Assembly: GCA_016219965.1 (NCBI GenBank)
Contig: JACRJM010000007.1
Span: forward strand, 372,294-436,293
Source: Candidatus Schekmanbacteria bacterium
GTDB taxonomy: Bacteria > Schekmanbacteria > GWA2-38-11 > J061
Length of the DNA: 64,000 nucleotides
Reading direction: 5' to 3'
This document shows positions 4,137 through 63,271 of the stretch, in pieces. Position numbers and translations under genes: made by a program. The notes under the pieces are model-generated. The model had not been told where the DNA came from and did no database searches. It saw only the letters and a program-made list of their open reading frames with translations. Position 1 is the stretch's first letter, and each line of letters opens with the position of its first letter.

Positions 4137-5885
4137 ATGCGGATGATACGTGTCGGTGCAGCGCAGATAAATACAACTGTAGGGGACCTTGCCGGGAATA
4201 CGTCTAAGATGACGGAAATCATAAAAAAGGCCAAGGACTTATCTATTGATATTCTGACATTCCCCGAGCTTGCAATCACAGGCTACCCTCCCAAAGACCT
4301 TCTGCTCAAGAGAAAGTTCATTCAGGACAATATCCAGATGCTTGATAAAATATGTAATGCCTCAAAAGGGATCATAGTCATTGCCGGATTCGTTAACGAG
4401 GAAAATGACATTTTCAACTCCGCTGCAGTCATACAGAACGGAAAGATAGTCGGCATCCAGAACAAGATACACCTTCCTAATTACAGTGTCTTTGATGAAA
4501 AAAGATATTTCAGGAGCGGAAAGGAAAGCCTGCTTTTTAAAGGAAAGAACATGACCTTCGGCGTCAACATCTGTGAAGATATATGGATTCCCGGATACCC
4601 GACTGAAAACCAGGCAAGTTCCGGAGCCGAGCTTATAATCAACATATCGGCTTCCCCTTATCATGTCGGCAAACCTGCGTTCAGGGAGGAAATGCTTAAG
4701 ACACGATGCACTGACAACATTGTCGCCCTTGTGTTCAACAATCTTGTAGGGGGACAGGACGACCTTGTATTTGACGGGCGAAGCATGATCATAAACTGCA
4801 AAGGGGAAATCCTCAGGAGAGGAAAGCTTTTTGAGGAAGACCTTATAATGTCTGACATAAACCTTGATGACATAAAAAGGATGAGGCTCCAGGACCCGAG
4901 GGGAAGGGAAGAACTCATGACTCCCGATGAGCATAAAGTAACGATAGTAAATATTGACGGGAAAATTTCTTCAGCAAAACAGAAGAAGAGAATCAGAGTG
5001 AACAGCAAGGCAGAGAAGGCATCTGGAAACAAGATCAGCCGCGCTGAGGAAATCTACAAAGCACTGGTCCTGGGAGTAAGCGATTATCTCAGAAAAAACG
5101 GTTTCAAACAGGTAATCCTGGGATTGAGCGGCGGGATAGATTCTTCGCTTGTAGCGACTATTGCCGTTGACGCACTTGGCAAAGAAAATGTCATTGGGAT
5201 CGCAATGCCGACTTCCATATCCTCATCACACAGCATTGAAGATGCGCGCCATCTTGCAAAGAACCTCTCCATAAGATTCGAGGTGGTTCCAATACAGTCT
5301 GTCTTTGATGAATACACAGAGATACTTTCCCCGCTTTTCAAGGGACGCAAATGGGATGTAGCTGAAGAAAACATCCAGGCAAGGATAAGAGGAAACATAC
5401 TGATGGCTCTTTCCAATAAATTCGGATACCTGCTGCTCACAACAGGGAACAAGTCTGAGCTGAGCGTCGGCTATGCGACACTTTACGGTGACATGGCAGG
5501 TGGCCTTGCCGTAATATCCGATGTCCCGAAAACATGGGTATATGAACTTGCAAGGTACAGGAACTCAGTTGCAGGAAAATCGCTCATCCCTGAAAGGTGC
5601 ATCACAAAACCACCTTCAGCAGAGCTTCGGCCAAATCAGAAAGACACGGATTCTCTTCCCGAGTACGAAATCCTGGATCAGATACTTCATCTTTATATTG
5701 AAGAGGACAACAGCCTTGAAGAGATAGTACGCCGGGGGATTGATGAAAAAACCGCACGCGATATGATACAGAGGATAGACGGGAATGAATACAAGAGACA
5801 GCAGGCCCCTCCGGGCATAAGGATAACAACAAAGGCTTTCGGTTCTGGAAGAAGGATACCAATCACTAACAAGTACAGAGGTTAA
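4137..5885 (+). CDS. nadE: Glutamine-dependent NAD+ synthetase
   Basis: N-terminal nitrilase/CN-hydrolase domain fused to C-terminal NAD synthetase with PP-loop LGLSGGIDSS. Confidence 0.9.
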   Translation: MRMIRVGAAQINTTVGDLAGNTSKMTEIIKKAKDLSIDILTFPELAITGYPPKDLLLKRKFIQDNIQMLDKICNASKGIIVIAGFVNEENDIFNSAAVIQNGKIVGIQNKIHLPNYSVFDEKRYFRSGKESLLFKGKNMTFGVNICEDIWIPGYPTENQASSGAELIINISASPYHVGKPAFREEMLKTRCTDNIVALVFNNLVGGQDDLVFDGRSMIINCKGEILRRGKLFEEDLIMSDINLDDIKRMRLQDPRGREELMTPDEHKVTIVNIDGKISSAKQKKRIRVNSKAEKASGNKISRAEEIYKALVLGVSDYLRKNGFKQVILGLSGGIDSSLVATIAVDALGKENVIGIAMPTSISSSHSIEDARHLAKNLSIRFEVVPIQSVFDEYTEILSPLFKGRKWDVAEENIQARIRGNILMALSNKFGYLLLTTGNKSELSVGYATLYGDMAGGLAVISDVPKTWVYELARYRNSVAGKSLIPERCITKPPSAELRPNQKDTDSLPEYEILDQILHLYIEEDNSLEEIVRRGIDEKTARDMIQRIDGNEYKRQQAPPGIRITTKAFGSGRRIPITNKYRG

Positions 5886-29110: not shown

Positions 29111-29893
29111 CTATTCGATCGTGCCATCAAAAGGGCTTGAAGCCGTTGCATAAAGTTTCTTCTGTATTCGTCCGGCAAGATAGGCAAGGCGTCCTGCATG
29201 CACTGCATATCTCATTGCCTCAGCCATGAGAAGCGGCTTTTTCGCTCCCGCGATGCCTGTGTTCATAAGCACTCCATCACAGCCAAGCTCCATTGCTATT
29301 GCAGCATCCGAGGCAGTGCCAACACCTGCATCAACAAGCACCGGGACTTTTACGGTCTCAAGGATTATTCTTATATTGTAGGGGTTCCTTATCCCAAGCC
29401 CTGAGCCAATAGGGGCGCCAAGGGGCATAACCGCAGAGGCACCGGCATCTTCAAGTTTCTTTGCCATGATTGGGTCGTCGTTTGTATATGGAAGAACTAT
29501 AAAACCTTCTTTAACTAACACTTTCGTAGCTTCAAGGAGAGCCTCGTTATCGGGGAAAAGTGTTTTCTCGCTCCCTATGACCTCAAGCTTTACCATGCTT
29601 GAAAGCCCTGCTTCGCGTCCAAGGCGGGCAGTCCTTATTGCATCATCCGCTGTATAGCATGCAGCAGTGTTTGGAAGTATTGTATATTTTTTCCTGTCTA
29701 TGTAATCGAGCAGGGATTCTTTCGTTGAGTCGCTTATGTTTATCCTTCGCACCGCGACAGTCACAATCTCAGCGCCTGAAAGTTCAAGCGCCTGCTTAGT
29801 CTCTTCGAAGCTTGCGTATTTTCCTGTCCCGACAATAAGCCTTGATTTGAATTTCTTATCACCGAGTATTAGATAATCTTCTGACATGTTCAT
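29111..29893 (-). CDS. thiG: Thiazole synthase
   Basis: [19 protein letters not shown] and overall ThiG TIM-barrel pattern. Confidence 0.9.
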
Positions 29894-30090
29894 CCTCCTC
29901 CAACAAAATGTATTATCTCAACAATGTCTCCGTCTTTTAAGGACACCGACATGTAATCTTCTTTTTTAATGACTTCCCTGTTAAGCTCCACGGCAACCTG
30001 TTTTCCGGCAATTCCCAAAGATTCCAGAAGTGCGTAAACCGTAAGCTCTCCGCTGAATTCTTTCAACTCACCGTTAATTTTTAATTGCAT
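29890..30090 (-). CDS. thiS: Sulfur carrier protein ThiS
   Basis: 66-aa [12 protein letters not shown] with C-terminal Gly-Gly; the ORF-track 107-aa version extends into the riboswitch and is rejected. Confidence 0.85.
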
Positions 30091-30099
30091 CAACTCACC

Positions 30100-30262
30100 G
30101 CACCAAAAATAAAAAAACCGGAAACCTAAAAGGTCCCGGCTATTATCAATAAGGCAAATCTTTGCTCCCTTCGCTGGCATTACCCAGATCAGGTTCAAAG
30201 GGTCACCCCGCAAACCGGGATTTCTCAGCCCTCATCAGGCTCCCCTAACAACCGCATATTAG
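30100..30262 (-). ncRNA. TPP (THI-box) riboswitch with terminator-type expression platform
   Basis: Minus-strand reads UAGGGGAGCCUGAUGAGGGCUGAGAAAUCCCGG..ACCCUUUGAACCUGAUCUGGGUAAUGCCAGCGAAGGGA, matching the conserved THI-element core (CUGAGA, ACCUGAUCUGG, UAAUGCCAGCG, AGGGA); followed by CCGGGA..UUUCCGG hairpin and U7 before the thiS start. Confidence 0.85.
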
Positions 30263-30298
30263 ACTTCCTGCTTTAATAGTCAAGGATTTTATGGAGTG

Positions 30299-30338
30299 GC
30301 AATTTACTCCGTAAACCCTTTTCCCTTCATATCTTCCA
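30299..30338. repeat. Remnant copy A of the GNAT gene 3' end
   Basis: Minus strand reads ..GATATGAAGGGAAAAGGGTTTACGGAGTAA (..DMKGKGFTE*), matching the genuine GNAT C-terminus at 31500-31535; located just after the isochorismatase stop. Confidence 0.75.
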
Positions 30339-30346
30339 TCCCATAT

Positions 30347-30973
30347 TTACTTGCCGGACTTAAGCGACATATAGCTGTTGATAAGGTTGCGGTAGTCGGG
30401 GATGTGCTTAGAGAACAACATTCCCAGACCCTCAACATCATTGCGCCAGTCTCGATGCAATTCGCAGGCCACACCGAACCAGGTCATAAGTTGCGCACCT
30501 GCGGCAGACATGCGATCCCAGGCGGAATGTCGTGTAACCTCGTTGAATGTGCCCGAGGCATCTGTTACGACAAAGACTTCAAAGCCTTCCTCCAAGGCCG
30601 ACAACGCCGGAAAAGCGACACATACTTCAGTCACTATGCCGGCAACGATCAACTGCTTCTTGCCGGTAGACTTTACTGCCTTGACGAACTCCTCATTATC
30701 CCAGGCATTGATCTGGCCGGGACGGGCAATGTAGGGTGCACCAGGGAAGGTTTCCTTCAACTCTGTCATCAACGGCCCATTCGGCCCATCTTCAAAACTT
30801 GTAGTTAGGATGGTTGGTAGCTTGAAATATTTTGCGAGATCGGCCAGAGCCAAGACGTTATTCCTGAATGTATCCGGATCGATATCGCGCACTAGTGACA
30901 AGAGGCCGGACTGGTGATCTACCAACAGTACAGCGGCATTGTTTTTATCAAGACGAACATAGGATTTGCTCAT
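30347..30973 (-). CDS. Isochorismatase-family cysteine hydrolase
   Basis: MSKSYVRLDKNNAAVLLVDHQ..VAGIVTEVCVAFPALSALEEGFEVFVVTDA pattern; RBS AAAGGAG before the MSKS start; visibly higher GC than neighbouring genes. Confidence 0.8.
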   Translation of the reverse strand: MSKSYVRLDKNNAAVLLVDHQSGLLSLVRDIDPDTFRNNVLALADLAKYFKLPTILTTSFEDGPNGPLMTELKETFPGAPYIARPGQINAWDNEEFVKAVKSTGKKQLIVAGIVTEVCVAFPALSALEEGFEVFVVTDASGTFNEVTRHSAWDRMSAAGAQLMTWFGVACELHRDWRNDVEGLGMLFSKHIPDYRNLINSYMSLKSGK

Positions 30974-31110
30974 GGCATGACTCCTTTCATGGTTTGAGTT
31001 TAGTCTCAGACATGAATGGGTGAGAGATGATAACATACGTCATAAATCTTTTCCTCATTCTATACGCTTCTATTTTAAAATTAAATTATTGAAAAGAAAT
31101 TTGCAAGGAA

Positions 31111-31147
31111 TCTACTCGGTAAATCCTTTTCCCTTCATCTCATCTGG
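31111..31147. repeat. Remnant copy B of the GNAT gene 3' end
   Basis: Minus strand CCAGATGAGATGAAGGGAAAAGGATTTACCGAGTAG (PDEMKGKGFTE*) with an in-frame stop immediately upstream, so non-coding. Confidence 0.75.
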
Positions 31148-31215
31148 TTTTTAATGAACGGGAGAAACAGACTGGATTGCCCTCTATACGGGAACAATAA
31201 GAAAGACAAGTTTAT

Positions 31216-31416
31216 CTATCTTAAATCTGAAAGATTTCCTTCCCAAAGTCCTTTATGTCTTCCTGTGAGAAGCTTCTTCCTTTTTAACCGGCTCACCAAC
31301 TCACGCAGAGCCAGCTCAACCACTTCCTTTTTTGTTTTCAAGGAAGTCAATTTCTTTGCCTCGTTTATTAGTTTGTCTTCCAAAACTATATTGGTTCTTT
31401 TGGTATACATAATCAT
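31216..31416 (-). CDS. VapB-family type II antitoxin-like protein (orphan)
   Basis: MYTKRTNIVLEDKLINEAKKLT..KTKKEVVELALRELV..GLWEGNLSDLR resembles VapB antitoxins; no PIN-domain toxin gene adjacent. Confidence 0.55.
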   Translation of the reverse strand: MIMYTKRTNIVLEDKLINEAKKLTSLKTKKEVVELALRELVSRLKRKKLLTGRHKGLWEGNLSDLR

Positions 31417-31499
31417 CCTTCTTTACACATTAAAAAAGCTTATTATTTTTATGCAAGCAATAAGAAAAATAGTTTATCGATAGACAATATGCGAGTAAT

Positions 31500-31922
31500 T
31501 TACTCTGTGAATCCTTTTCCCTTCATCTCATCTGCTTTTCTGAAGAGTGCCATGCCGGTCTTCATTTTCCGCAATCCTAATTTTCTGTAAAAATCTTCTT
31601 TACCGGGAGAGGCAAAGAGGATGACATTGCACTGCGAGAGACGGGAGAGGATGTTTGTAATAATTTTAGTTCCAATCCCCTTTTTTTGGAATTCAGGGAC
31701 AACAGCTACATCATAGATAGCGGCCTGATAAGCCCCATCGGAAATTGCCCTGCCAAAACCAATCAACTGTCCGTCATGATAGACAAACACAGCGACATAG
31801 CTGTTCTCAAAGGCTTTCCTGTGTATGCCGGGCTCATGATACCCCATTCCGACACGCTTTAGCGTTTCCGATACCACTTTCCACTCCACTCCGGAACATT
31901 CAAATTTAATCTCTATTTCCAC
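31500..31922 (-). CDS. GNAT family N-acetyltransferase
   Basis: Acetyl-CoA binding motif (Q/R)xxGxG/A as QKKGIGTKI and overall GNAT pattern; the last ~12 codons are the source of the repeated tail sequence. Confidence 0.85.
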   Translation of the reverse strand: MEIEIKFECSGVEWKVVSETLKRVGMGYHEPGIHRKAFENSYVAVFVYHDGQLIGFGRAISDGAYQAAIYDVAVVPEFQKKGIGTKIITNILSRLSQCNVILFASPGKEDFYRKLGLRKMKTGMALFRKADEMKGKGFTE

Positions 31923-32000
31923 AAAGACCCCCTGAGGACTGAATGGTATCAGAGTGTAACACTGAGAGTATCATGCGATATTCAATTTGTTATTTTTTAA

Positions 32001-32249
32001 TTACTCTGCAACTTGATGGATAATCTCAGAGATATAAGTTTGATATTTTATACCTATTTTTTTTGCTTTAACTTTTATTTTTTCAATATCTTCACTATTA
32101 ACTCTTATAGTCATTGTTATATCTTTCTTTCGTGATTTAAGAGACCTCTCTATTTTTTCAAGTTCTTTACCTTTTATCTTTTTATACTCACCACGCAGTA
32201 ATGCGCTTTCAATCTCTCGTTCTTCTTTAGTTAATCTAATTTTTTTCAT
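32001..32249 (-). CDS. BrnA/CopG-like ribbon-helix-helix antitoxin-like protein (orphan)
   Basis: 82 aa; ITMTIRVNSEDIEKIKVKAKKIGIKYQTYISEIIHQ resembles the BrnA antitoxin family; no BrnT-like toxin adjacent. Confidence 0.5.
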   Translation of the reverse strand: MKKIRLTKEEREIESALLRGEYKKIKGKELEKIERSLKSRKKDITMTIRVNSEDIEKIKVKAKKIGIKYQTYISEIIHQVAE

Positions 32250-32282
32250 TGTTTATCTTTCAGGATTTTGTTTTTTTCTTCA

Positions 32283-32413
32283 TTATCCACAAACCGTTGC
32301 AATATTAGAGATAAGTTTTTTGAGTATTTTAACCTTCTGAATTTTTCACAAAGCTATTTTGTCTCTCGACTTAAACATTTATGACTTACATTTGTTAGCT
32401 ATGAAGATTTGAC
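32283..32413. repeat. ~130-bp direct repeat R1 (upstream of the 82-aa gene)
   Basis: About three-quarters identical by eye to 33361-33490 (shared blocks GAGATAAGTTTTT, TTTTTCAC, ATTTATGACTTA(C/T)ATTTGT, TATGAA). Confidence 0.7.
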
Positions 32414-32448
32414 CTTATTACCCTTTTGAACTTAATACATAGACAACA

Positions 32449-33318
32449 TCATCCTGCTCGTTTAATATCATTTTTAGTTAACTGATATATTGCTGCCTTT
32501 AAAACTTGCCAGCATATTGCAGCAGTGTGTTTATCAGGATTAAACCCACTACTAACTTGCTCATATGGGTGAATATAGTTTCTAAAATATCTTAACGAAT
32601 GACTAAATTTTCGTACATCTTCCAGTAGGAGACCTACATCATATGCTACATCAATAAAATTGTTTAATGACCAATCTGGAAATTGTTTAACTTTTCCTTC
32701 CTTATCTTTTGGTGACATCTTTGATTGATTAAATTCTTTTGGATGTTTTAAAGCTATTCCAAGTAAAATACCCTCCAGTGTACTTCCTGCAAGAAATATT
32801 ACAGAAAGTGGCGCAGTGACAGATAAACATTTTTTCATTTCTTCAAATCGATATTTCAATGTCTCGGTAATAACTCCATCAAGTCCAATTTTCTCAAGTG
32901 AAATTTCGCTAAACTCTCTTTTTAAAAACTCATCTTCTTCTGTTTCACTTGAACTATCTTCGAAGTTTATTTTATCAGCTTTTGCAAATATTATTTCTTT
33001 TTCATTCCTGACAACTTTCCAATTATCAAATGCGAGATATTGATTAAACTCTTTGATGAATTTGTCTAAATCAGCAAATCGACCAATGAAGTTTACTGGT
33101 GCAAACAATTTCTTGATACATTTGTCCAATTCAGGAGTACCGTTGATTTTGGAAAGCTTTTCATCTGTGTACATCCATCTTGAAGGGAATCCTTGTAAAT
33201 ATTGATCCTTAAATCCTAACTCATTAAAAAAACTAACTAATTGAGGGCCGGAACGATATTCCGTTTCTTCATTAATCAGGTTTCTTAATTTCTCAAGTGA
33301 TTTTTTCTGAAGAATCAT
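32449..33318 (-). CDS. Hypothetical protein with AbiJ-like N-terminal region and C-terminal HEPN-like Rx6H motif
   Basis: 289 aa; C-terminal RYFRNYIH fits the HEPN R-x(4-6)-H motif; assignment tentative. Confidence 0.4.
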   Translation of the reverse strand: MILQKKSLEKLRNLINEETEYRSGPQLVSFFNELGFKDQYLQGFPSRWMYTDEKLSKINGTPELDKCIKKLFAPVNFIGRFADLDKFIKEFNQYLAFDNWKVVRNEKEIIFAKADKINFEDSSSETEEDEFLKREFSEISLEKIGLDGVITETLKYRFEEMKKCLSVTAPLSVIFLAGSTLEGILLGIALKHPKEFNQSKMSPKDKEGKVKQFPDWSLNNFIDVAYDVGLLLEDVRKFSHSLRYFRNYIHPYEQVSSGFNPDKHTAAICWQVLKAAIYQLTKNDIKRAG

Positions 33319-33360
33319 TTTAATCCTATATTTGAAACAATAGATGGGGACAAATCTTCG

Positions 33361-33490
33361 TTATCTACAAACTGCTCACTCTGAGAGATAAGTTTTTCGA
33401 AAATTTTCACCCTCTACTTTTTTCACGCAGTCATTTCGTTTCTTGTCTCACAAATTTATGACTTATATTTGTCGTTATGAAAATTTTACA
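33361..33490. repeat. ~130-bp direct repeat R2 (upstream of the 289-aa gene)
   Basis: Paralogous to R1 at 32283-32413. Confidence 0.7.
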
Positions 33491-33660
33491 CTACTAGCCT
33501 CATCTTGTCTCCTTCGATTTTTATTGATCTAACACAGAATTGAGTAATGAGTCACTGAAAGATAACAATATGCCTACAACTAATTGGCATCCATCATAGC
33601 AATGTAAGCAAAAAAAACGACCTAACGCACTCGTTCAAGTGCAGCGTGTACTGGGGGGGG

Positions 33661-34023
33661 TCAGTCACTATATTTGGAAGTCTGCCATGAGTTAACCTCG
33701 AATAGTACGGCACAATCACCGGAATTATTCCAGACAGTTTTCTCAAGTCCCCAAAACATGAAGTGTGTTGTAGACCCATCTTGGTTCTTCTGTTCACTTG
33801 GTGTTCCCGATTTTGTATAAAGGACTACGGAGTCCCCAGCGCGTACCTCTTTTGGCTTGAACCAGTATGCGTGCCGTTGGAGGTTTGAGATTGCATTCTG
33901 AGACGTATACGTTGTGTCAAACACAATAAAGTAATTTAGGTTCGTAGTAGCAATGACTTTAAGCCACAACCGCTCTTTGTTGGCTACACCTCTGTCGACG
34001 ATATTGACTATTTCAATCTTCAT
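33661..34023 (-). CDS. Hypothetical protein (~120 aa)
   Basis: ORF starting MKIEIVNIVDRG; translationally coupled to the upstream membrane-protein gene (4-bp overlap); GC higher than surrounding housekeeping genes; no recognisable motif. Confidence 0.4.
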   Translation of the reverse strand: MKIEIVNIVDRGVANKERLWLKVIATTNLNYFIVFDTTYTSQNAISNLQRHAYWFKPKEVRAGDSVVLYTKSGTPSEQKNQDGSTTHFMFWGLEKTVWNNSGDCAVLFEVNSWQTSKYSD

Positions 34024-34484
34024 CTTTTTACAATCCTCCCGACAGATGCGCCCACTATAATGCATAAACCAACTATACCAGCGATGACGCCATATTCGGA
34101 CTTCTCTCCCCAAAAAAACGGCATCAGACCGATGATAGCGCCCCCGAGACCTACTCCTACGCCAAAAAAAATCTCTATTGCTTTTTGAGTCAGTAATTTC
34201 TCAGAGAGTACTGCTGCTTTCTTGTCGGATTCATGATAGAGGTTTATGTATGATCTTAAATACTCCCGCTCATCATCAGCTTCTTCGAGCAGGCCGAGGA
34301 TAAGCTTCTGCACGCCAGGGGAGAACAACTCTTCGTCGGTCAATTGCCTTCTAACATCTCTGAATGCTGCTCGTCGTCCAGATGGTGGCACACCAGACTC
34401 AATCGTGCCAGTTTCACGTGGTTCTGTTTCCTTTTTTTGACTGGGAGGGCCCAATGCTGAAGCCTCAGTTTTAACATCATTCAT
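34020..34484 (-). CDS. Hypothetical membrane protein (N-terminal soluble region, two C-terminal TM helices)
   Basis: 154 aa; C-terminal glycine-rich hydrophobic segments FFGVGVGLGGAIIGL and GVIAGIVGLCIIVGA. Confidence 0.45.
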   Translation of the reverse strand: MNDVKTEASALGPPSQKKETEPRETGTIESGVPPSGRRAAFRDVRRQLTDEELFSPGVQKLILGLLEEADDEREYLRSYINLYHESDKKAAVLSEKLLTQKAIEIFFGVGVGLGGAIIGLMPFFWGEKSEYGVIAGIVGLCIIVGASVGRIVKR

Positions 34485-34693
34485 TTTTCGCCTCCATCAT
34501 AATTTCAAAGACCTAACATTCCTCTTTATATTTATTCCCTGATTGTCAATTTTATACTCATCATTAAAATACTTAGTCAAGAAAAAGTGCCTATAAGATA
34601 ATTTGAACGTGTAAAAAAAGATAACAAATATTATAAAATGATTTATGATTGACAATCCATTCCATCAACTCAGAAATCTTAAAAGGTAAGATA

Positions 34694-35425
34694 ATGATAT
34701 GTCCTAAATGCAAAATAGAACAGGCTGACGGAAATACTGAATGCACAAGGTGCGGGATTATTTTCGAAAAATATGAAGAGCATCAGAATTTACTTGCTGA
34801 AGAAAAGATTCCTAAGGCTTGTGATGATGAAACAGTATCTTCTCTCATCTCATTAAAAGACTTCTTGTTCTACGTAGCTCCCGGCACCAATCCCTTTTAT
34901 CTTGGCGGGAGAATAATTGTTTTCTTATTCATTCTGGCCTGGAGCATAAACTTTTTCCGTTTTCCAATGGAGAGCAATCATTCGGGGGAAAGTTTCCTCC
35001 ATTTCATAAACATCCCCTTCCATGAAGCAGGGCATATTATATTCATGCCCTTTGGGAGATTTATGAGCGCTCTTGGCGGCACACTGGGGCAACTGCTCAT
35101 ACCGTTTGCCTGTCTTTTCACTTTCCTTATAAAAACACGTGACACCTTCGGAGGATCAGTAGCATTGTGGTGGACTGGAGAAAATTTTCTTGATATTGCC
35201 CCCTATATAAATGATGCGAGGGATTTAAATCTTTTACTCCTGGGCGGAGTGACAGGAAAGGAAGTTGAGGGGCATGACTGGGAATTCATTCTTGGCAAAC
35301 TACAGGCTCTCCGGTATGATCACACTATTGCAAATATTATCCATAATGCCGGAATCGTCGTGATGATTCTTTCGCTTTTATGGGGAGGGTACATTATTTT
35401 TAAACAGGTGATTTCAAGAGCATGA
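34694..35425 (+). CDS. Membrane protein with N-terminal zinc ribbon and HExxH motif (putative intramembrane zinc metallopeptidase)
   Basis: CPKC..CTRC zinc ribbon, then several TM segments containing FHEAGHIIF; start placed at MICPKCK after the AAGGTAAG RBS. Confidence 0.5.
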   Translation: MICPKCKIEQADGNTECTRCGIIFEKYEEHQNLLAEEKIPKACDDETVSSLISLKDFLFYVAPGTNPFYLGGRIIVFLFILAWSINFFRFPMESNHSGESFLHFINIPFHEAGHIIFMPFGRFMSALGGTLGQLLIPFACLFTFLIKTRDTFGGSVALWWTGENFLDIAPYINDARDLNLLLLGGVTGKEVEGHDWEFILGKLQALRYDHTIANIIHNAGIVVMILSLLWGGYIIFKQVISRA

Positions 35426-36099
35426 AGCTGATAAAGAATATTCCAATAAAAATTGATAAAGATGAGCTGTTAAAGATCCTGAAAATAAAAAAGGAGTCTG
35501 CGGGAAAAATCAATGACAATCTCGCAAGGCTGATAGATGAAGAAATAGCGCGGGGGATGAAACTCGCAAGGCCTCAGGCGCTTTATGAATTTAGAAAAGT
35601 AATAAATTCTGATGGTGACGGTGTTGAAATAGAAGGCGGCATAAAGATTGGCGAAAACACTTTCAAGAATTACATGACATCAATTGACCGAATCTGTTTT
35701 GCCCTTGTGACCATAGGTCCTGCCCTTGAAGAGGAGGCTGACAAGCTTCAAAAGGATGGCGAATACACCCGTGCAATGATACTCGATGCTGTAGGGTCAG
35801 TTGCAGTTGAAGATGCGGCAGGGAATTTAAACCACATGATTTGCGACAAATTAAAAGGGAAGAAAACCGGAATATCCCGCCGCTTCAGTCCTGGATATGG
35901 AAAGTTCAAGGTTAAGGAACAGAAAAAAATATCAGACATAATCCCATTCAAAAAAATTGGAGTGGCTCTCACATCATCATTCATGATGGTGCCTCAAAAG
36001 AGCATAAGCTTTTGCCTTTATACTGGAAAGCTTAAAAAAGAAATCCCCGGAACCTGTAATATATGCGGGATGAAGGATTGCCCTTACCGCAGCTGTTGA
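35422..36099 (+). CDS. Hypothetical protein with methionine-synthase-activation-domain-like RFSPGYG motif and C-terminal Cys cluster
   Basis: 225 aa; start overlaps the upstream stop (ATGA); RRFSPGYG; C-terminal CNICGMKDCPYRSC. Confidence 0.4.
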   Translation: MKLIKNIPIKIDKDELLKILKIKKESAGKINDNLARLIDEEIARGMKLARPQALYEFRKVINSDGDGVEIEGGIKIGENTFKNYMTSIDRICFALVTIGPALEEEADKLQKDGEYTRAMILDAVGSVAVEDAAGNLNHMICDKLKGKKTGISRRFSPGYGKFKVKEQKKISDIIPFKKIGVALTSSFMMVPQKSISFCLYTGKLKKEIPGTCNICGMKDCPYRSC

Positions 36100-57451: not shown

Positions 57452-58001
57452 TTGTTGATTACCTTACGACACGGCAAACAGGGCATTATATAAAAAAGTT
57501 CCGGTCATACTTTTAAGCTTCAAGCCTTACCGAAACAAATGCTTTCAACGAAAATAACAAAATAAAACAGGTATGTAAAAAGCCAAATAATTGTGCGAGT
57601 TATATAGGTCGGGGATTAAAAGTCAAGGAAAAATGGCAGCGGATAAAACCGGTACTTATGATATTTTGAAGAAAGAAAACAAGTAGAAAAAAACATAACA
57701 AGCTAAATAAAACCGTCGAATATTTGAACACTTTAAGTCGTTTAAAATCAATATGTTCTAAAAACTCACTAAAAAGTGTGCAGTTTAGTGAACAGTTTAG
57801 TAGGAGTTTATATTAACCTATCCAAGCTATACGACACATTTAAACCTAATATTTTCAAGCAAATCAGTATGTTATTATCTTCGAGTTACCTTCTGGCACA
57901 TTCTTTGCTTATTTTATATAGAATATTTTTTAAGTTTACTATTTAAGTCTTGTATATAGCCTGTAAAATTTTTTTCCACTTCAGAATAAGGGGGTATTGT
58001 G

Positions 58002-60512
58002 ATGAGGCGTAAATCAATTCTATTCATTATTGTTTTCTCAATTCTGTTAATTCCTCTTCTTGCTTTTGCAAACACATCACCTGATACATCAAAAGTTTTA
58101 GCCAAGGCCGCAAAGCTTCAGATACCTTTCATAGAGAACAAGGGACAGGTTCAGGACAAGTCTGTAAGATTTTATGCAAACACCTTCGCAGGCAATGTGT
58201 TTGTTACGGATAAAGGAGAGATAGTTTACGGGCTGGCAAACGGAGAAAGCTTTACTCCCCTTCGCGAAACTCTCCTTGGTACAATACCGTCAACTATAAA
58301 AGGCGAGAGCAAATCAGCAACACAGGTAAATTACTTCGTTGGCAATAAAGAAAACTGGAAGTCAAACATCTCCACATGGGACAGCGTAAATCTCGGCGAA
58401 GTCTATGAAGGTGTAGAGCTAAAGCTCAAAGCATATGGGAAAAATGTTGAAAAGCTTTTCTATGTAAATGAATGCGGAGATGTTGATGATATTAAACTAA
58501 CATTCGACGGCGCAGAAGATATTTCAGTTAACAAAGATGGCGAGCTTGAAATTGAAACAGCTCTCGGCACAGTGAAATTTACAAAGCCCTTCGCCTATCA
58601 GGAAATTGATGGAAAAAAGGTTGAAGTGAAATGCGACTTCGTAACTAATTCTTTCTCCTATGGCTTCCAGGTCACCTCATACAACAAAAACTATCCTCTG
58701 GTTATTGACCCATCTATTGTTTATTCAACATATCTTGGCGGAAGTAGTTTTGATTATGGTTACGGCATTGACGCTGACTGTTCAGGAAATGTTTATGTCA
58801 TAGGTGGCACCGAATCGACTGATTTTATAATTTCTTCTCCATATCAAGGGGATAGTGGTGGTTCTGCAGACATCTTTGTTACAAAAATAAATTCATCTGG
58901 TTCTGTTATCTACTCTACTTATATTGGTGGGAATGGGTATGACAGAGGTTACGATATTGCAGTTGACTGCTCAGGGAATGCTTACATCACTGGCTTTACA
59001 GAGTCTAGTAATTTCCCTACAGTTTCACCGATTCGTGCTACTAATGGTGGAGGTATGGATGTTTTTATTACAAAAATCAATCCCTCAGGCTCAAGCCTGA
59101 TATATTCAACTTATTTAGGAGGTAATTCCAGCGACGTTGGATTTGCTATCGCTGTTAACGCTTCCGGAAATGCATACATTACCGGAAGTACTTTATCATC
59201 AAACTTTCCAAAATATCATAATGTAATCCCAAATTCAAAGTATGGAACCACAGATGCAAGTGACGCTTTTATTGTAAAAATAAATTTATCCGGTACGGGT
59301 CTATTGTATTCCATGCTTCTTGGAGGAAATAATGATGATGAAGCAAAGGGCATCGCTGTTGACGGCAATGGAAACATCTATGTAGCTGGGAACACAAATT
59401 CGTCTGATTTCCCTACTGTTCTTCCTATTCAAGCTACAAAAGCAGGAACTGGCACTACAAGTGATGCTTTTGTCACAAAGATAAATGCCGCTGGAACAGC
59501 AATTTTATATTCTACCTACATTGGAGGTAGTAATATAGATTATGCTAATGGAGCTGACGTAGATAGTGCTGGTAATGTTTATATTACTGGGGCAACTAAA
59601 TCCAATAATTTCCCTACAGTCTTACCAATTAAAGGGTATGGCGGTGGGTATGATGCTTTTGTTACAAAGATTAATGAATCTGGTTCAGCTATTGTTTATT
59701 CTACTTACCTTGGAAGTGGTTATGGAGATTTTGGTAACGGCATCGCTGTTGATAATTCTGGGAATGCTTATGTTGCTGGCAATACAGGTGGGAATTTCCC
59801 TCAAGTATTGCCTGTTCAAACTACAAATTTAGACGGAGGTGATGCTTTTATTACAAAAATAAATGCATCCGGAGATGCTTTTGTTTTTTCCACACGTTAT
59901 GGAGGACAAGAAAGTGATGATGCAAGAGCGATTGCCATTGATAGCAGTGGAAATATTTACATCACAGGAAACACGTCTTCTACTAATTTTCAAATAGCTG
60001 CTCCAATACAACGCGCATATAATGGAGTATGGGACGCTTTTGTTGCAAAGATTGGAGAAGCGTCGGATAGTGATTCGGATGGGATTGCAGATTCAGCAGA
60101 TAATTGTCCTACAGTTTCAAATTCCGACCAAGCTGATTATAATAATAATGGACAAGGTGATGCATGTGACCCGCCTCCAACGTTAATAACCCTTTCCTCT
60201 TTTGAAGCCAAACAATCTGGCAAAAAAGTCTTAATAACTTGGCAGACCGCCACAGAGATCGACAACCTCGGTTTCAACATCCTGCGCAGTGAGACTGCTG
60301 ATGGAGAATATGTTAAGATAAATAAAAAACTCATCAAAGCCAAAGGTAGTTCAACAAAAGGTGCGAGTTACAAGTTCAAAGATAAGAATATCGAGGCAGG
60401 AAAGACTTATTTCTACAAACTCGAAGATATTGACAGTAGCACAGGACCAAATCTGTCTGATGCGGTGAAAGTTGAAGTGACTGCGAGGAAGGGAAAAGAG
60501 AAGAAGAAATAA
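58002..60512 (+). CDS. Secreted SBBP-type beta-propeller repeat protein with thrombospondin-type-3-like Asp-rich segment and conserved C-terminal domain (paralog 1)
   Basis: Signal peptide MRRKSILFIIVFSILLIPLLAFA; about nine tandem units of pattern (V/I)YSTY(L/I)GG..D.G.GIA(V/I)D.SGN.Y(V/I)TG.T.S.NFP; DSDSDGIADSADNCPTVSNSDQADYNNNGQGDACD; C-terminal ~110 aa ending in Lys-rich tail; ATG at 58002 follows RBS AAGGGGG. Confidence 0.8.
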   Translation: MRRKSILFIIVFSILLIPLLAFANTSPDTSKVLAKAAKLQIPFIENKGQVQDKSVRFYANTFAGNVFVTDKGEIVYGLANGESFTPLRETLLGTIPSTIKGESKSATQVNYFVGNKENWKSNISTWDSVNLGEVYEGVELKLKAYGKNVEKLFYVNECGDVDDIKLTFDGAEDISVNKDGELEIETALGTVKFTKPFAYQEIDGKKVEVKCDFVTNSFSYGFQVTSYNKNYPLVIDPSIVYSTYLGGSSFDYGYGIDADCSGNVYVIGGTESTDFIISSPYQGDSGGSADIFVTKINSSGSVIYSTYIGGNGYDRGYDIAVDCSGNAYITGFTESSNFPTVSPIRATNGGGMDVFITKINPSGSSLIYSTYLGGNSSDVGFAIAVNASGNAYITGSTLSSNFPKYHNVIPNSKYGTTDASDAFIVKINLSGTGLLYSMLLGGNNDDEAKGIAVDGNGNIYVAGNTNSSDFPTVLPIQATKAGTGTTSDAFVTKINAAGTAILYSTYIGGSNIDYANGADVDSAGNVYITGATKSNNFPTVLPIKGYGGGYDAFVTKINESGSAIVYSTYLGSGYGDFGNGIAVDNSGNAYVAGNTGGNFPQVLPVQTTNLDGGDAFITKINASGDAFVFSTRYGGQESDDARAIAIDSSGNIYITGNTSSTNFQIAAPIQRAYNGVWDAFVAKIGEASDSDSDGIADSADNCPTVSNSDQADYNNNGQGDACDPPPTLITLSSFEAKQSGKKVLITWQTATEIDNLGFNILRSETADGEYVKINKKLIKAKGSSTKGASYKFKDKNIEAGKTYFYKLEDIDSSTGPNLSDAVKVEVTARKGKEKKK

Positions 60513-60522
60513 AAGATTCTGG

Positions 60523-60583
60523 ATCCCGCATCAAGTGCGGGATGACAAAAGTGACTGTGTTGGATGCCGGCTCAAGTCCGGCA
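60523..60583 (+). other. Tandem stem-loop pair between the large gene and the small peptide gene
   Basis: ATCCCGCA-TCAAG-TGCGGGAT and ATGCCGG-CTCAAGT-CCGGCAT, each followed by GACA; same pair recurs at 63282-63342. Confidence 0.6.
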
Positions 60584-60630
60584 TGACAGATTATTAAGGA
60601 ATGACAACAGGATTAATAGGAGAATATAAA

Positions 60631-60786
60631 ATGAATAAGATGAAAAAAATTTATAAAAAACCAACTATCAGAAAAGTAAAACTTGTTCCTGAAGAAGCAG
60701 TTCTCGGTGTTTGCAAGAGCGACACAGGCGCGGGACCAAATCAGTCAGTCTGCATCATCCCACAATGCTTTAATCCGGGAAGCTGA
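60631..60786 (+). CDS. Conserved 51-aa three-cysteine peptide (paralog 1), unknown function
   Basis: MNKMKKIYKKPTIRKVKLVPEEAVLGVCKSDTGAGPNQSVCIIPQCFNPGS; RBS AGGAGA 7 nt upstream; copy 2 differs at 17 codons, 13 of them synonymous. Confidence 0.65.
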   Translation: MNKMKKIYKKPTIRKVKLVPEEAVLGVCKSDTGAGPNQSVCIIPQCFNPGS

Positions 60787-60820
60787 TTATTTTATAAAAC
60801 AAATATCTGGGGGTATTGTG

Positions 60821-63271
60821 ATGGGGCGTAAATCAATTCTATTTATTATTGTGTTCTCAATCCTGTTAATTCCTTTCATTACTTTTGCAAACACACAACC
60901 TGATACATCAAAAGTTTTAGCTAAGGCGGCTAAGCTCCAGATACCTTTCATAGAGAACAAGGGACAGGTTCAGGACAAGTCTGTAAGATTTTATGCAAAC
61001 ACTTTTGCAGGCAATGTGTTCGTTACTGATAAAGGAGAGATAGTTTACGGGTTGGTAAACGGAGAAAGCTTTACTCCCCTTCGCGAAACTCTCATTGGTA
61101 CAATACCGTCAACTATAAAGGGCGAGAGCAAATCAGCAACACAGGTAAATTACTTCGTTGGTAATAAAGAAAACTGGAAGTCAAACATCTCCACATGGGA
61201 CAGCGTAAATCTCGGTGAAGTCTATGAAGGTGTGGAGTTAAAGCTCAAAGCATACGGACAAAATGTAGAAAAGCTTTTCTATGTAAATGAATGCGGAGAT
61301 GTTGATGATATTAAACTAACATTCGACGGTGCAGAAGATATTTTTGTCAATGAAAGCGGAGAACTTGAAGTAGAGACAGAACTCGGCACAGTGAAATTTA
61401 CCAAGCCCTTCGCCTATCAGGAGCTTGATGGAAAAAAGATTGAGGTAAAATGCAACTTCATCGTCCCTTCCTCTACCCTGCGGGGAGAGGAACGAGGTGA
61501 GGGGGAACTCTCCTACGGCTTCCAGGTCGCCTCATACGACAAGAACTATCCGCTGGTCATAGATCCATCTATTGTTTATTTTGGAACATTTGGTGGAGGT
61601 GTAACAACCATCCCCTATGATGTAACTCTCGATAATTCAGGAAATGTGTACATCACAGGACAAACTTATGGCACTCTCGGTGATTTTCCACTAATTTCTC
61701 CATTATATAGTTATAATAAAGGGGACAGTGATGTGTTTGTTTTAAAAATTAATGCAAGCGGCACCGCACTTGTTTATTCAACTTTTATCGGTGGAACCGG
61801 GGTTGATGTCGGCTATGGTATCGCAGTTGATAGCTCAGAGAATATTTATATTACAGGTTCGACAACATCATCTAATTTTCCCTTAATGTCTCCAATACAA
61901 GCTTTGAAAGCTGGAACAAATGATGCATTTATTACCAAAATAAATTCATCCGGAACATCCCTTATTTATTCAACATATCTGGGAGGTAGCAATTCTGATT
62001 ACTGTACCGCAATAGCAGTTGATAACTCGGGGAATGCCTATGTTACAGGAAATACCAATTCTACAAATTTCCCCTTGTCATCTCCATTGCAGGGAAGTTT
62101 TGGGGGAGGAAGTTACGACGCATTTTTAACAAAAATTAATTCTTCAGGAAATGTTTTTGTTTATTCTACATACCTTGGTGGAAGCGACTGGGAAAGGGGG
62201 AATAGTATTGCCGTTGATTCAGCAGGCAATGCATATGTGACTGGAAGCACACAATCAACAAATTTCCCTATATATAATGCCTTTCAATCAACTATGAAAG
62301 ACAACAATGGTTATTATTCCCAACATGCTTTTATAACAAAGATTAATTCTTCAGGCACGACATTTATTTTTTCAACATATTTTGGAGGAACTTTCGGTGC
62401 TGTTGGTAAAGGCATTGCAGTTGATTCATACGGTAATATCTATGTAGGCGGTGAAACTTTTTCCTATGATCTTCCAGTTACCAACTATCTTTCAAATCCT
62501 TTCCCTATGAGCACTAATGCCTTTGTAAGTAAATTTGACACAACAGGCGCCACACTTCTTTATTCTACTTTTTTCGGTGGAAGTTGGGAACAGACAGTAA
62601 ATGACATTGCTATAGACGGAGGCGGCAATATTTATATTGTCGGTTCAACATACTCTTATGTCGATTTTCCAGTTTATAGAGCCTTCCAGCCGCAATTCAA
62701 CAATACAAGTGGTCTTAAAGATGGTTTTGTAAGCAAAATAAATCCGGCAACCCAATCTTTTGAATATTCCTCTTATTTAGGTAGTTATAGTTATGGAGTT
62801 GATAATGTGGCATATGGGGTTGCCGCATCACTTGATGGCACTGCATATGTAGCGGGAGTATCTGGTTTGCCAAGAATTAACAGTCCTTCAGGTTTAAATG
62901 GCGGGGACGCTTTTATTGCTAAAATTGCAGATATCCCAACAGCTATAACTCTTTCATTATTTGAAATAAATCAGCACGGCAAAAAAGTCCTTTTAACTTG
63001 GCAAACCGCCACAGAGATCGACAACCTCGGATTCAACATCCTGCGCAGTGAGACTGCTGATGGTCAATATGTTAAGATAAATAACAGACTCATCAAAGCC
63101 AAAGGGAGTTCAACAAAAGGTGTGAGTTACAAGTTCAAAGATAAGAATATTGAGGCAGGAAAGACTTACTTCTACAAACTCGAAGATATTGACAGCAACA
63201 CAGGACCAAATCTGTCTGATGCGGTGAAAGTTAAAGTGACCGCAAGGAAGGGAAAAGAGAAGAAGAAATAA
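60821..63271 (+). CDS. Secreted SBBP-type beta-propeller repeat protein (paralog 2)
   Basis: Start at MGRKSILF after the same GGGGGTATTGTG RBS block; N-terminal ~240 aa and C-terminal ~110 aa near-identical to paralog 1 at DNA level, central repeat region divergent; ORF-track start at 60683 rejected. Confidence 0.8.
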   Translation: MGRKSILFIIVFSILLIPFITFANTQPDTSKVLAKAAKLQIPFIENKGQVQDKSVRFYANTFAGNVFVTDKGEIVYGLVNGESFTPLRETLIGTIPSTIKGESKSATQVNYFVGNKENWKSNISTWDSVNLGEVYEGVELKLKAYGQNVEKLFYVNECGDVDDIKLTFDGAEDIFVNESGELEVETELGTVKFTKPFAYQELDGKKIEVKCNFIVPSSTLRGEERGEGELSYGFQVASYDKNYPLVIDPSIVYFGTFGGGVTTIPYDVTLDNSGNVYITGQTYGTLGDFPLISPLYSYNKGDSDVFVLKINASGTALVYSTFIGGTGVDVGYGIAVDSSENIYITGSTTSSNFPLMSPIQALKAGTNDAFITKINSSGTSLIYSTYLGGSNSDYCTAIAVDNSGNAYVTGNTNSTNFPLSSPLQGSFGGGSYDAFLTKINSSGNVFVYSTYLGGSDWERGNSIAVDSAGNAYVTGSTQSTNFPIYNAFQSTMKDNNGYYSQHAFITKINSSGTTFIFSTYFGGTFGAVGKGIAVDSYGNIYVGGETFSYDLPVTNYLSNPFPMSTNAFVSKFDTTGATLLYSTFFGGSWEQTVNDIAIDGGGNIYIVGSTYSYVDFPVYRAFQPQFNNTSGLKDGFVSKINPATQSFEYSSYLGSYSYGVDNVAYGVAASLDGTAYVAGVSGLPRINSPSGLNGGDAFIAKIADIPTAITLSLFEINQHGKKVLLTWQTATEIDNLGFNILRSETADGQYVKINNRLIKAKGSSTKGVSYKFKDKNIEAGKTYFYKLEDIDSNTGPNLSDAVKVKVTARKGKEKKK

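What the first reader, a model, noticed from the sequence alone, without database searches (positions are those of the whole stretch)
32283..33490. Paralogous ~130-bp elements precede two consecutive island genes
The 5' regions of the BrnA-like gene and the HEPN/AbiJ-like gene carry ~130-bp direct repeats sharing conserved blocks (GAGATAAGTTTTT, TTTTTCAC, ATTTATGACTTA(C/T)ATTTGT, TATGAA). They contain no ORF. They could be a shared promoter/operator, a cis-acting RNA leader, or cassette recombination sites of a second type. I could not find the inverse-core/core layout of integron attC sites in them.
Basis: seen in the sequence. Interest (0 to 1): 0.5.

Follow-up and report, generated by a model that had tools for sequence, protein, structure and literature searches.

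The report
Diverged repeats bracketing an acquired gene
Two roughly 150-base non-coding repeats, about 75% alike, sit on either side of a horizontally acquired defence gene; they look like the scar of how that gene was spliced in, not a new RNA element or integron site, so the finding is real but fairly ordinary.

Summary
The repeat is real. Window 32277-32424 and 33355-33500 are direct copies, 75% identical over 148 nt (E = 2e-21), exactly 1077 bp apart, and the only two copies in the window.

Both genes lie on the minus strand. Each copy ends 12-36 nt upstream of a start codon: a CopG/BrnA-like antitoxin gene and a 289-aa AbiJ/HEPN-like gene. Equally, the two copies bracket the HEPN gene.

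The evidence does not support a special element:
- The "conserved blocks" are what randomly scattered mismatches give (P = 0.38).
- There is no Rfam match and no conserved or unusually stable fold.
- The terminal inverted repeat is not significant.
- No attC core pair and no integrase were found.
- No sigma-70 promoter sits at matching positions in the gene direction.
- The mismatches show no coding phase.

About 100 loci carrying relatives of either gene lack the element. Their nucleotide homology stops at the ORF edges, next to the repeat boundaries.

The same island holds a second repeat-module-repeat array made of GNAT 3'-end copies. Two unrelated genomes show the same layout with their own local sequence.

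Best reading: these are junction duplications left by recombinational insertion of a promoterless HEPN module. Each gene keeps one copy of the same 5' flank. Any function is unproven.

The parts
32277..32424 (.). Repeat copy E1. It lies between the HEPN stop codon (32449-32451) and the ATG of the CopG/BrnA-like gene (32249). The nhmmer envelope is 32262-32439.
   Evidence: (D8). GC is 0.28.
33355..33500 (.). Repeat copy E2. It lies about 155-160 nt after the stop of the 120-aa gene and 14-36 nt before the HEPN ATG (33318). The nhmmer envelope is 33333-33505.
   Evidence: (D8). GC is 0.32.
32449..33318 (-). 289-aa AbiJ/HEPN-like ORF: an AbiJ/Stk2-type N-terminal domain plus a C-terminal R-x6-H motif (RYFRNYIH). 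This is the module bracketed by E2 and E1.
   Evidence: PADLOC matches Stk2 at 1e-11 and AbiJ at 2e-4. There is no Pfam match. The protein has 4496 homologues at 72-90% identity across many phyla. The motif was read from the translation.
32461..33335 (-). Extent of nucleotide homology between the HEPN gene and its closest relatives elsewhere (89% and 85% identity). It covers the ORF plus about 17-20 nt of ribosome-binding region, and none of the repeat.
   Evidence: blastn against L094-L101; boundary alignments.
32001..32249 (-). 82-aa CopG/BrnA-like RHH antitoxin gene with no BrnT partner. Its homology to relatives covers only 31997-32259.
   Evidence: (PF12441, PF21983, PF14384, all below the curated cut-offs). 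BrnT is present upstream in L103-L106.
31500..31922 (-). GNAT acetyltransferase gene. It is adjacent to the RHH gene here and in L104/L105. Its 3' end is the source of the island's second repeat family.
31465..31539 (.). Second repeat family, copy Y: the real GNAT 3' end plus about 40 nt.
   Evidence: (D11, D12).
31077..31151 (.). Second repeat family, copy X: a displaced GNAT 3'-end fragment lying after the VapB module.
   Evidence: (D11, D12).
30301..30336 (.). Second repeat family, copy Z: a displaced GNAT 3'-end fragment lying after the isochorismatase module.
   Evidence: (D12).

Best explanation
E1 and E2 are the two junction copies of a repeat-module-repeat structure. It was made when a promoterless AbiJ/HEPN ORF module (window 33335-32461) was recombined into the 5' flank of the CopG/BrnA-like antitoxin gene.

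There are two ways this could have happened. A circular or linear incoming piece may have carried its own, already diverged, version of that flank (Campbell-type or att-like integration). Alternatively, the target flank may have been duplicated at insertion and then diverged.

The consequence is that the HEPN gene and the antitoxin gene each sit 12-36 nt downstream of one copy of the same roughly 150-nt AT-rich flank. If that flank has any activity, it would be as ordinary 5' flank (promoter or untranslated region).

Shown: the repeat itself; its position tight against both ends of the module; the homology limits of both genes; the absence of RNA, attC, MITE and coding signatures; and parallel architectures elsewhere.

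Inferred: the recombinational origin, which copy came in with the module, and any promoter role.
For: 1. The repeats bracket the HEPN ORF tightly. They are in direct orientation with a period of exactly 1077 bp.
2. HEPN genes 89% and 85% identical in nucleotides, found in other contexts, share only window 33335-32461: the ORF plus about 20 nt upstream. Similarity stops within about 20 nt of E2's end and about 20-35 nt of E1's start. RHH homology is likewise limited to 32259-31997.
3. None of 80 genome loci with HEPN relatives carries the element. Neither do the 8 metagenomic loci holding the closest HEPN genes or the 5 loci with RHH relatives. The element therefore belongs to the site, not to either gene.
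4. The same island has a second repeat-module-repeat array. Three copies of the GNAT 3' end delimit the VapB and isochorismatase modules. In the last 8 codons these copies differ only synonymously, so each came from a working GNAT allele and not from decay in place.
5. There are independent parallels built from local sequence. In L104/L105 a BrnT-BrnA insertion is flanked by a 166-nt, 87%-identical duplication of the GNAT 5' end. In L021 the HEPN gene plus a 112-aa gene is flanked by a 464-nt, 95%-identical duplication of the region upstream of the next gene.
6. The mismatch pattern is consistent with unconstrained divergence. There is no coding phase.
Against: - No recombinase gene lies in the island or within about 15 kb on either side. 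The mechanism is therefore not identified.
- 25% divergence is large for a duplication made in place while both ORFs stay intact. This pushes towards copies that were already diverged, which implies a wider element family.
- No such family turned up. However, my public-collection scans needed exact matches to 18-22 specified bases and were insensitive to copies about 75% alike.
- Only 2 of 56 HEPN loci with usable flanks show long flanking non-coding repeats (L043's repeats are coding). The layout is therefore not a general property of this gene.
- The rest of the source genome could not be searched.
Confidence: 0.5

Rival explanations
1. Shared promoter/operator. Both copies would be working 5' regulatory regions that place the HEPN gene and the orphan RHH antitoxin under one regulator, most plausibly the RHH protein itself binding the ACATTTAT-GACTT-ACATTTGT repeat.
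For: - Each copy ends 12-36 nt from a start codon.
- RHH antitoxins commonly repress their own promoters (established knowledge of type II toxin-antitoxin systems).
- The region is AT-rich.
- This reading is compatible with the best explanation as a consequence of the duplication.
Against: - No -35/-10 pair lies at homologous positions in the gene direction.
- The only candidate in E2 (33511-33483) sits at the very edge and is not conserved in E1.
- There is no significant similarity to the brnT promoter regions in front of 80-86%-identical RHH genes.
- The conserved runs are not more than chance.
- All seven island genes share one orientation and could be co-transcribed. No convincing terminator precedes E2.
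Confidence: 0.2
2. Dedicated recombination sites of a non-integron gene-cassette system. The elements would be recognised by a recombinase encoded elsewhere, and HEPN plus one element would be a mobile cassette.
For: - The cassette-like layout is element-ORF-element-ORF, with ORF-only homology units.
- The cargo is defence and toxin-antitoxin genes in one orientation.
- Each copy has a 7-5-6 bipartite inverted repeat at its ends: TCTTCAT-5 nt-ACAAAT ... GTTTGT-5 nt-ATGAAGA.
Against: - The terminal inverted repeat is not significant: p = 0.08 for E1 and 0.8 for E2 against shuffles.
- No recombinase was found among the genes tested between 15 and 48 kb.
- Only two copies exist, and there is none after the RHH gene.
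- No copy was found in IMG/VR, JGI metagenomes, plasmids or phages at the sensitivity used.
- The closest HEPN relatives have no room for a 3' site: in L094 there is a 20-nt gap to the next gene.
Confidence: 0.15
3. MITE-like miniature mobile element. It would have inserted twice and would incidentally sit in front of both genes.
For: The size is about 150 nt, the sequence is AT-rich and intergenic, and the ends form short inverted repeats.
Against: - The inverted repeats are not significant.
- No target-site duplication is visible at the ends.
- The only two copies in 64 kb lie 1 kb apart and exactly bracket an acquired ORF.
- 75% identity is low for an active MITE family.
Confidence: 0.07
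4. Cis-regulatory RNA leader or small RNA gene, on either strand.
For: - The position is that of a 5' untranslated region.
- A promoter-like pair lies at homologous positions on the + strand: T[CT]G[AT]CT-15-TA[CT]ATT at 32366-32392 and 33443-33469.
Against: - No Rfam match at E <= 10.
- Fold z-scores of -1.97, +0.40, -1.30 and -0.02.
- Consensus fold energies of -6.75 and -4.4 kcal/mol, with a single compensatory pair each.
- The spacer of the + strand pair is a poor 15 nt.
Confidence: 0.03

Closest known systems
attL/attR-type direct repeats flanking integrated islands, where the incoming element carries its own copy of the target gene end. Examples are islands at tRNA 3' ends and SXT at the prfC 5' end (from my own knowledge).
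   Same: - Direct repeats bracket an acquired, compositionally distinct segment.
- The repeats are diverged versions of one local sequence.
- Tandem accretion is seen in the same island, with the GNAT 3'-end copies differing only synonymously.
   Different: - No integrase was found in the module or nearby.
- The module is a single ORF of 0.9 kb.
- The repeated sequence is non-coding, and no crossover core is identifiable.
Integron gene cassettes and attC sites, including integrase-less attC clusters (CALIN)
   Same: - There is an array of promoterless, same-orientation, unrelated small genes (toxin-antitoxin, GNAT, isochorismatase, defence) separated by repeats.
- The repeat length is near the upper attC range.
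   Different: - There is no conserved AAC/GTT core pair.
- The single strand forms no imperfect hairpin: DNA folds of -4.4 to -11 kcal/mol, no better than shuffles.
- The length exceeds the 57-141 bp range given in PMC5371416.
- No IntI was found.
- The repeats are 75% alike in primary sequence, whereas attC sites share structure and not sequence (PMC5371416).
Campbell-type (single-crossover) integration, which duplicates the homologous segment on both sides of the insert
   Same: The architecture is H-insert-H in direct orientation. The parallels in L104 and L021 are made of purely local sequence.
   Different: 75% identity, with a longest identical run of 14 nt, is too low for recent RecA-dependent crossover. 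The event would have to be old, or mediated by another enzyme.
MITEs such as Correia/NEMIS elements that carry promoters
   Same: The size, AT-richness and intergenic position immediately upstream of genes.
   Different: No significant terminal inverted repeats, no target-site duplication, and only two adjacent copies.

Membership tests
Integron attC site | R''/R' boxes carrying the conserved AAC...GTT triplets (RYYYAAC ... GTTRRRY) 45-160 nt apart | tested here: not met
   A regex scan of 29500-35500 on both strands found no pair, against 6 in the whole window. By eye, the inner box pairs ACAAAT with GTTTGT (AAT, not AAC). The AAC present in E1 is not at the homologous column in E2.
Integron attC site | The single-stranded DNA folds into a long imperfect hairpin with an unpaired central spacer and extrahelical bases (PMC5371416) | tested here: not met
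   DNA folds of both copies on both strands give -4.4 to -11 kcal/mol, with z-scores from -0.5 to +0.8 against shuffles.
Integron attC site | Length of 57-141 bp | tested here: not met
   The repeat is 148 nt by blastn and up to 173-178 nt by nhmmer.
Integron attC site | An integron integrase (IntI) adjacent to the array. This is not required for integrase-less attC clusters. | tested here: not met
   Pfam scans of 30 ORFs between 15.3 and 48 kb found no tyrosine recombinase or transposase. The outer parts of the window and the rest of the genome were not tested.
att-type junction repeats of an integrated module | Direct repeats immediately flank a segment whose similarity to relatives elsewhere ends at the repeats | tested here: met
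   HEPN homology runs 33335-32461, and the repeats start within about 20-35 nt of those ends.
att-type junction repeats of an integrated module | A cognate recombinase, or demonstrable excision | tested here: not met
   No recombinase was found nearby. Excision cannot be tested without reads. Exact-protein look-ups returned only two contigs from the same sample, with no empty-site variant.
MITE | Terminal inverted repeats beyond chance | tested here: not met
   The end-to-end duplex is -10.1 kcal/mol for E1 (p = 0.08) and -7.2 for E2 (p = 0.80) against shuffles. Genomic 156-nt windows average -9.9.
MITE | Many dispersed copies with target-site duplications | tested here: inconclusive
   There are only 2 copies in 64 kb and no target-site duplication by inspection.
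Cis-regulatory RNA (riboswitch or leader) | A match to a described family, or a conserved and stable secondary structure | tested here: not met
   No Rfam match on the element at E <= 10. See the fold z-scores and the consensus folds of -6.75 and -4.4 kcal/mol. With only two sequences, covariation has almost no power.
Sigma-70 promoter shared by both genes | -35/-10 hexamers with a 15-19 nt spacer at homologous positions in the gene direction | tested here: not met
   The consensus scan shows no such pair shared by E1 and E2 in the gene direction. This is a weak test: it uses a simple consensus, and the promoter rules of this phylum are unknown.
RHH (CopG/BrnA) operator | The antitoxin binds to repeated half-sites in the element | not testable with these tools
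   The only indirect test was a comparison with the brnT promoters of close RHH relatives, which showed no significant shared motif.

The most novel reading that the evidence does not exclude
The island would be an integrase-less cassette array of a non-integron type. Single promoterless defence or toxin-antitoxin ORFs (AbiJ/HEPN, VapB, isochorismatase, BrnTA) would be captured one at a time next to a GNAT gene, by a trans-acting recombinase that uses roughly 40-150-nt sites. Two site families would be in use: the E element on the 5' side and the GNAT 3'-end copy on the 3' side. The E elements would then be the first members of a new recombination-site class. The near-identical AbiJ/HEPN ORF seen across bacterial phyla and in an archaeal MAG would be one of its travelling cassettes.
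Probability: 0.1. Interest if true: 0.7.

Novelty: new member of a known kind. Interest (0 to 1): 0.25.

Why it matters
Taken alone, the repeat pair is a junction scar and changes little. Its value lies in the context.

- It marks precisely where a promoterless AbiJ/HEPN defence ORF was spliced into a small toxin-antitoxin/defence islet. That ORF is 72-90% identical in protein across very distant phyla.
- The same islet and two unrelated genomes show the same repeat-module-repeat layout, built from local sequence.
- If that pattern proves general, it would point to a simple, integrase-independent or trans-mobilised route by which single defence genes are added next to conserved anchor genes.
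- For annotation, the result warns against calling such upstream repeats riboswitch-like leaders or attC sites.

Tried and rejected
**Searches for further copies (all negative)**
- nhmmer with a two-copy profile found no copy in the whole window.
- It found none in 80 genome loci with HEPN relatives.
- It found none in 8 metagenomic loci with the closest HEPN genes.
- It found none in 5 loci with RHH relatives.
- Exact block patterns in IMG/VR and JGI metagenomes gave only chance hits, which nhmmer did not extend.
- blastn against plasmids and phages found nothing.
- A protein-database search with the translated + strand frame shared by both copies (RDKFFE...L*) found no candidate.
- Exact-protein look-ups for the HEPN, RHH, g120 and GNAT proteins, aimed at sister strains, returned only contigs from the same sample, SRR12113407.

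**Readings rejected**
- Coding remnant: mismatch phase is 11/11/15 and the shared frame is broken by an indel upstream.
- Remnant of brnT or its promoter: local alignments are no better than shuffles.
- attC.
- Terminal inverted repeats.
- 'Conserved blocks' as evidence of constraint.
- Low GC as a sign of foreign origin of the element itself: host intergenic regions range from 0.24 to 0.48 GC, so 0.28-0.32 is uninformative.
- Brachyspira locus L043 as a third example of flanking repeats: its repeats are coding 75-nt units in the neighbouring genes.
- A strong terminator between g120 and E2: there is only a weak 6-bp hairpin, with a U8 tract 8 nt later.

Full report
**What is there**

The region lies in a small island between the thiamine operon and housekeeping genes. 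A TPP riboswitch sits at 30149-30256 on the minus strand. All island genes are on the minus strand:
- isochorismatase family, 31036-30347
- orphan VapB, 31416-31216
- GNAT acetyltransferase, 31922-31500
- 82-aa CopG/BrnA-like RHH protein, 32249-32001
- 289-aa protein, 33318-32449
- 120-aa protein, 34023-33661
- 154-aa membrane protein, 34484-34020

The 289-aa protein has no Pfam match. It matches the PADLOC Stk2 and AbiJ models over its N-terminal domain and carries a C-terminal RYFRNYIH motif. This fits the AbiJ class of HEPN abortive-infection proteins, which have variable N-terminal domains (PMC3710099).

The 32-33 kb stretch has 30% GC against about 43% around it.

**The observation**

Two direct copies are real:
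- 76% identity without gaps over 96 nt (D8).
- 75% over 148 nt, E = 2e-21: 33355-33500 vs 32277-32424.
- Profile envelopes of 32262-32439 and 33333-33505.
- The period is exactly 1077 bp.
- A profile built from both copies finds nothing else in the 64-kb window.
- The only other repeat family in the island is the GNAT 3'-end family.

Read in the direction of the genes, each copy ends 12-36 nt before a start codon. The two copies also bracket the 289-aa ORF: E2 ends 14-36 nt before its ATG, and E1 begins 9-24 nt after its stop.

**Is there a signal beyond homology?**

No.
- Mismatches show no codon periodicity: 11/11/15.
- A + strand frame shared by both copies (RDKFFE...L*) is broken by an indel upstream and has no relative in the protein database.
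- Rfam gives nothing on the elements, even at E <= 10.
- RNA folds have z-scores of -1.97, +0.40, -1.30 and -0.02. DNA folds are no better than shuffles.
- Two-sequence consensus folds are -6.75 and -4.4 kcal/mol.
- Both copies carry a bipartite inverted repeat at their ends (TCTTCAT-5 nt-ACAAAT ... GTTTGT-5 nt-ATGAAGA) whose spacing recalls attC R/L boxes. The end-to-end duplex is not better than shuffles (p = 0.08 and 0.80) or than ordinary genomic windows.
- No RYYYAAC...GTTRRRY pair exists anywhere in 29.5-35.5 kb.
- No -35/-10 pair lies at homologous positions in the gene direction. One poor pair with a 15-nt spacer lies at homologous positions on the + strand.

**Does the element travel with either gene?**

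No.

The 289-aa protein has 4496 homologues. The best 120 are 72-90% identical. They come from Sedimentisphaerales, Cloacimonadota, Bacteroidota, Chloroflexota, Zixibacteria, Clostridia and a Helarchaeota MAG. The exact protein is annotated in a Candidatus Schekmanbacteria MAG.

None of 80 genome loci with relatives has the element. Metagenomic genes 89% and 85% identical in nucleotides (L094-L101) match the window only from 33335 to 32461, which is the ORF plus about 20 nt of ribosome-binding region. In those loci the gene sits in other contexts, for example after serS and before an AAA ATPase.

The RHH gene behaves the same way. Its relatives match only 32259-31997, with no element upstream. 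In L103-L106 the RHH gene is preceded by an overlapping 87-aa brnT gene, which is missing in the window. The promoter regions of those brnT genes show no significant similarity to E1 or E2.

Both genes are therefore ORF-sized modules, and the repeat belongs to the site.

**Searches for further copies**

- Exact two-block and one-block patterns in IMG/VR and a two-block pattern in JGI metagenomes gave only chance matches.
- Plasmid and phage blastn gave nothing.
- These scans needed exact matches to 18-22 specified bases, so they would miss most copies that are only about 75% alike.
The rest of the source genome could not be reached: exact-protein look-ups returned only two short contigs of the same sample.
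- Absence of further copies is therefore not established.

**Parallels**

1. In the same island, three copies of the GNAT 3' end (31539-31465, 31151-31077, 30336-30301) delimit the VapB and isochorismatase modules. In the last eight codons (MKGKGFTE*) they differ only at synonymous sites. Each therefore derives from a working GNAT allele. This is the pattern expected when incoming pieces bring their own copy of the target gene end and pile up in tandem.
2. In L104/L105 a BrnT-BrnA pair sits in the 5' end of a GNAT homologue. It is flanked by a 166-nt, 87%-identical duplication of that 5' end.
3. In L021 (Cloacimonadota) the HEPN gene plus a 112-aa gene is flanked by a 464-nt, 95%-identical duplication. 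The duplication ends 29 nt before the HEPN ATG and 42 nt before the next gene.

A third candidate, L043, was discarded because its repeats are coding. Long non-coding flanking repeats occur in 2 of 56 HEPN loci with usable flanks.

**Interpretation**

The simplest account is that E1 and E2 are junction copies made when the promoterless HEPN module was recombined into the 5' flank of the RHH-GNAT unit. This left each gene with one copy of the same flank.

The 25% divergence is large for a duplication made in place next to two intact ORFs. I therefore favour copies that were already different when joined: one resident and one incoming. That in turn implies relatives of the element exist somewhere unsampled.

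No recombinase is present among the ORFs tested between 15 and 48 kb, so the enzyme is unknown. A promoter or operator role is compatible with the position but has no sequence support. A dedicated recombination-site family, a MITE and an RNA motif remain possible at decreasing probability.

**Comparison with known systems**

The layout works like attL/attR repeats of integrated islands and like Campbell-type duplications. It resembles integron arrays in cargo and orientation, but it fails every attC feature tested.

**Verdict**

This is a real but ordinary feature. The 'conserved blocks' and the RNA-leader idea do not. The 'recombination site' idea survives only in the weak form of junction duplicates. 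Interest is low to moderate, and mainly as a pointer to how single defence ORFs are added to such islets.

Noticed in passing
window 30301-30336, 31077-31151, 31465-31539: Three direct copies of the GNAT gene's 3' end (encoding ...MKGKGFTE*) delimit the VapB and isochorismatase modules. In the last 8 codons they differ only synonymously. This suggests tandem accretion of modules that each brought a GNAT 3' end from a working allele.
   Followed up: partly
window 32449-33318 (minus strand); loci L002-L101, L108: The 289-aa AbiJ/HEPN-like protein is 72-90% identical across very distant bacterial phyla and in a Helarchaeota MAG. Nucleotide homology is limited to the ORF plus about 20 nt. The ORF keeps 28-33% GC whatever the host GC (57% in the serS gene next to it in L094). 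It looks like an unusually mobile ORF-sized unit with no identified vehicle. A few copies are in IMG/VR contigs.
   Followed up: partly
L104 3505-3667 and 4478-4643 (also L105, L106): A BrnT-BrnA pair is inserted into the 5' end of a GNAT homologue with a 166-nt, 87%-identical duplication of that 5' end. This leaves a truncated 40-codon GNAT fragment upstream. A 27-nt repeat (CGCNNCGCTCCGGNNGATTTTTTCGTT) flanks the BrnTA pair itself.
   Followed up: partly
L021 3509-3972 and 5437-5896 (plus 2831-2947 / 5326-5439): In a Cloacimonadota MAG, the HEPN gene plus a 112-aa gene is flanked by a 464-nt, 95%-identical duplication of the region upstream of the next gene. This is the same layout as in the window, built from unrelated sequence.
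   Followed up: partly
window 32001-32249 and 31216-31416 (minus strand): Both antitoxin genes are orphans. The CopG/BrnA-like gene lacks the brnT partner that overlaps it in L103-L106, and the VapB gene has no VapC.
   Followed up: partly
window 32366-32392 and 33443-33469 (+ strand): A promoter-like pair, T[CT]G[AT]CT-15 nt-TA[CT]ATT, lies at homologous positions in both copies on the strand opposite to the genes. It points into the 3' end of the upstream gene. The 15-nt spacer is poor, and this is probably chance.
   Followed up: no
window 30149-30256 (minus strand): A TPP riboswitch (68 bits, above the gathering score) lies in front of thiS-thiG-thiE, directly after the last GNAT 3'-end copy. 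It marks the island's lower boundary.
   Followed up: no
window 57999-63271: Two large paralogous genes (837 and 862 aa) carry about 63-aa tandem repeat units. Segments about 2.8 kb apart are 87-93% identical (D1-D7, D10).
   Followed up: no
L001 and L107 (Logan contigs from SRR12113407): The independent assembly of the same sample breaks inside the RHH gene. L001 ends at its codon 57 and L107 starts in its last 35 codons. This hints at several near-identical RHH genes or strain variation at this point.
   Followed up: no
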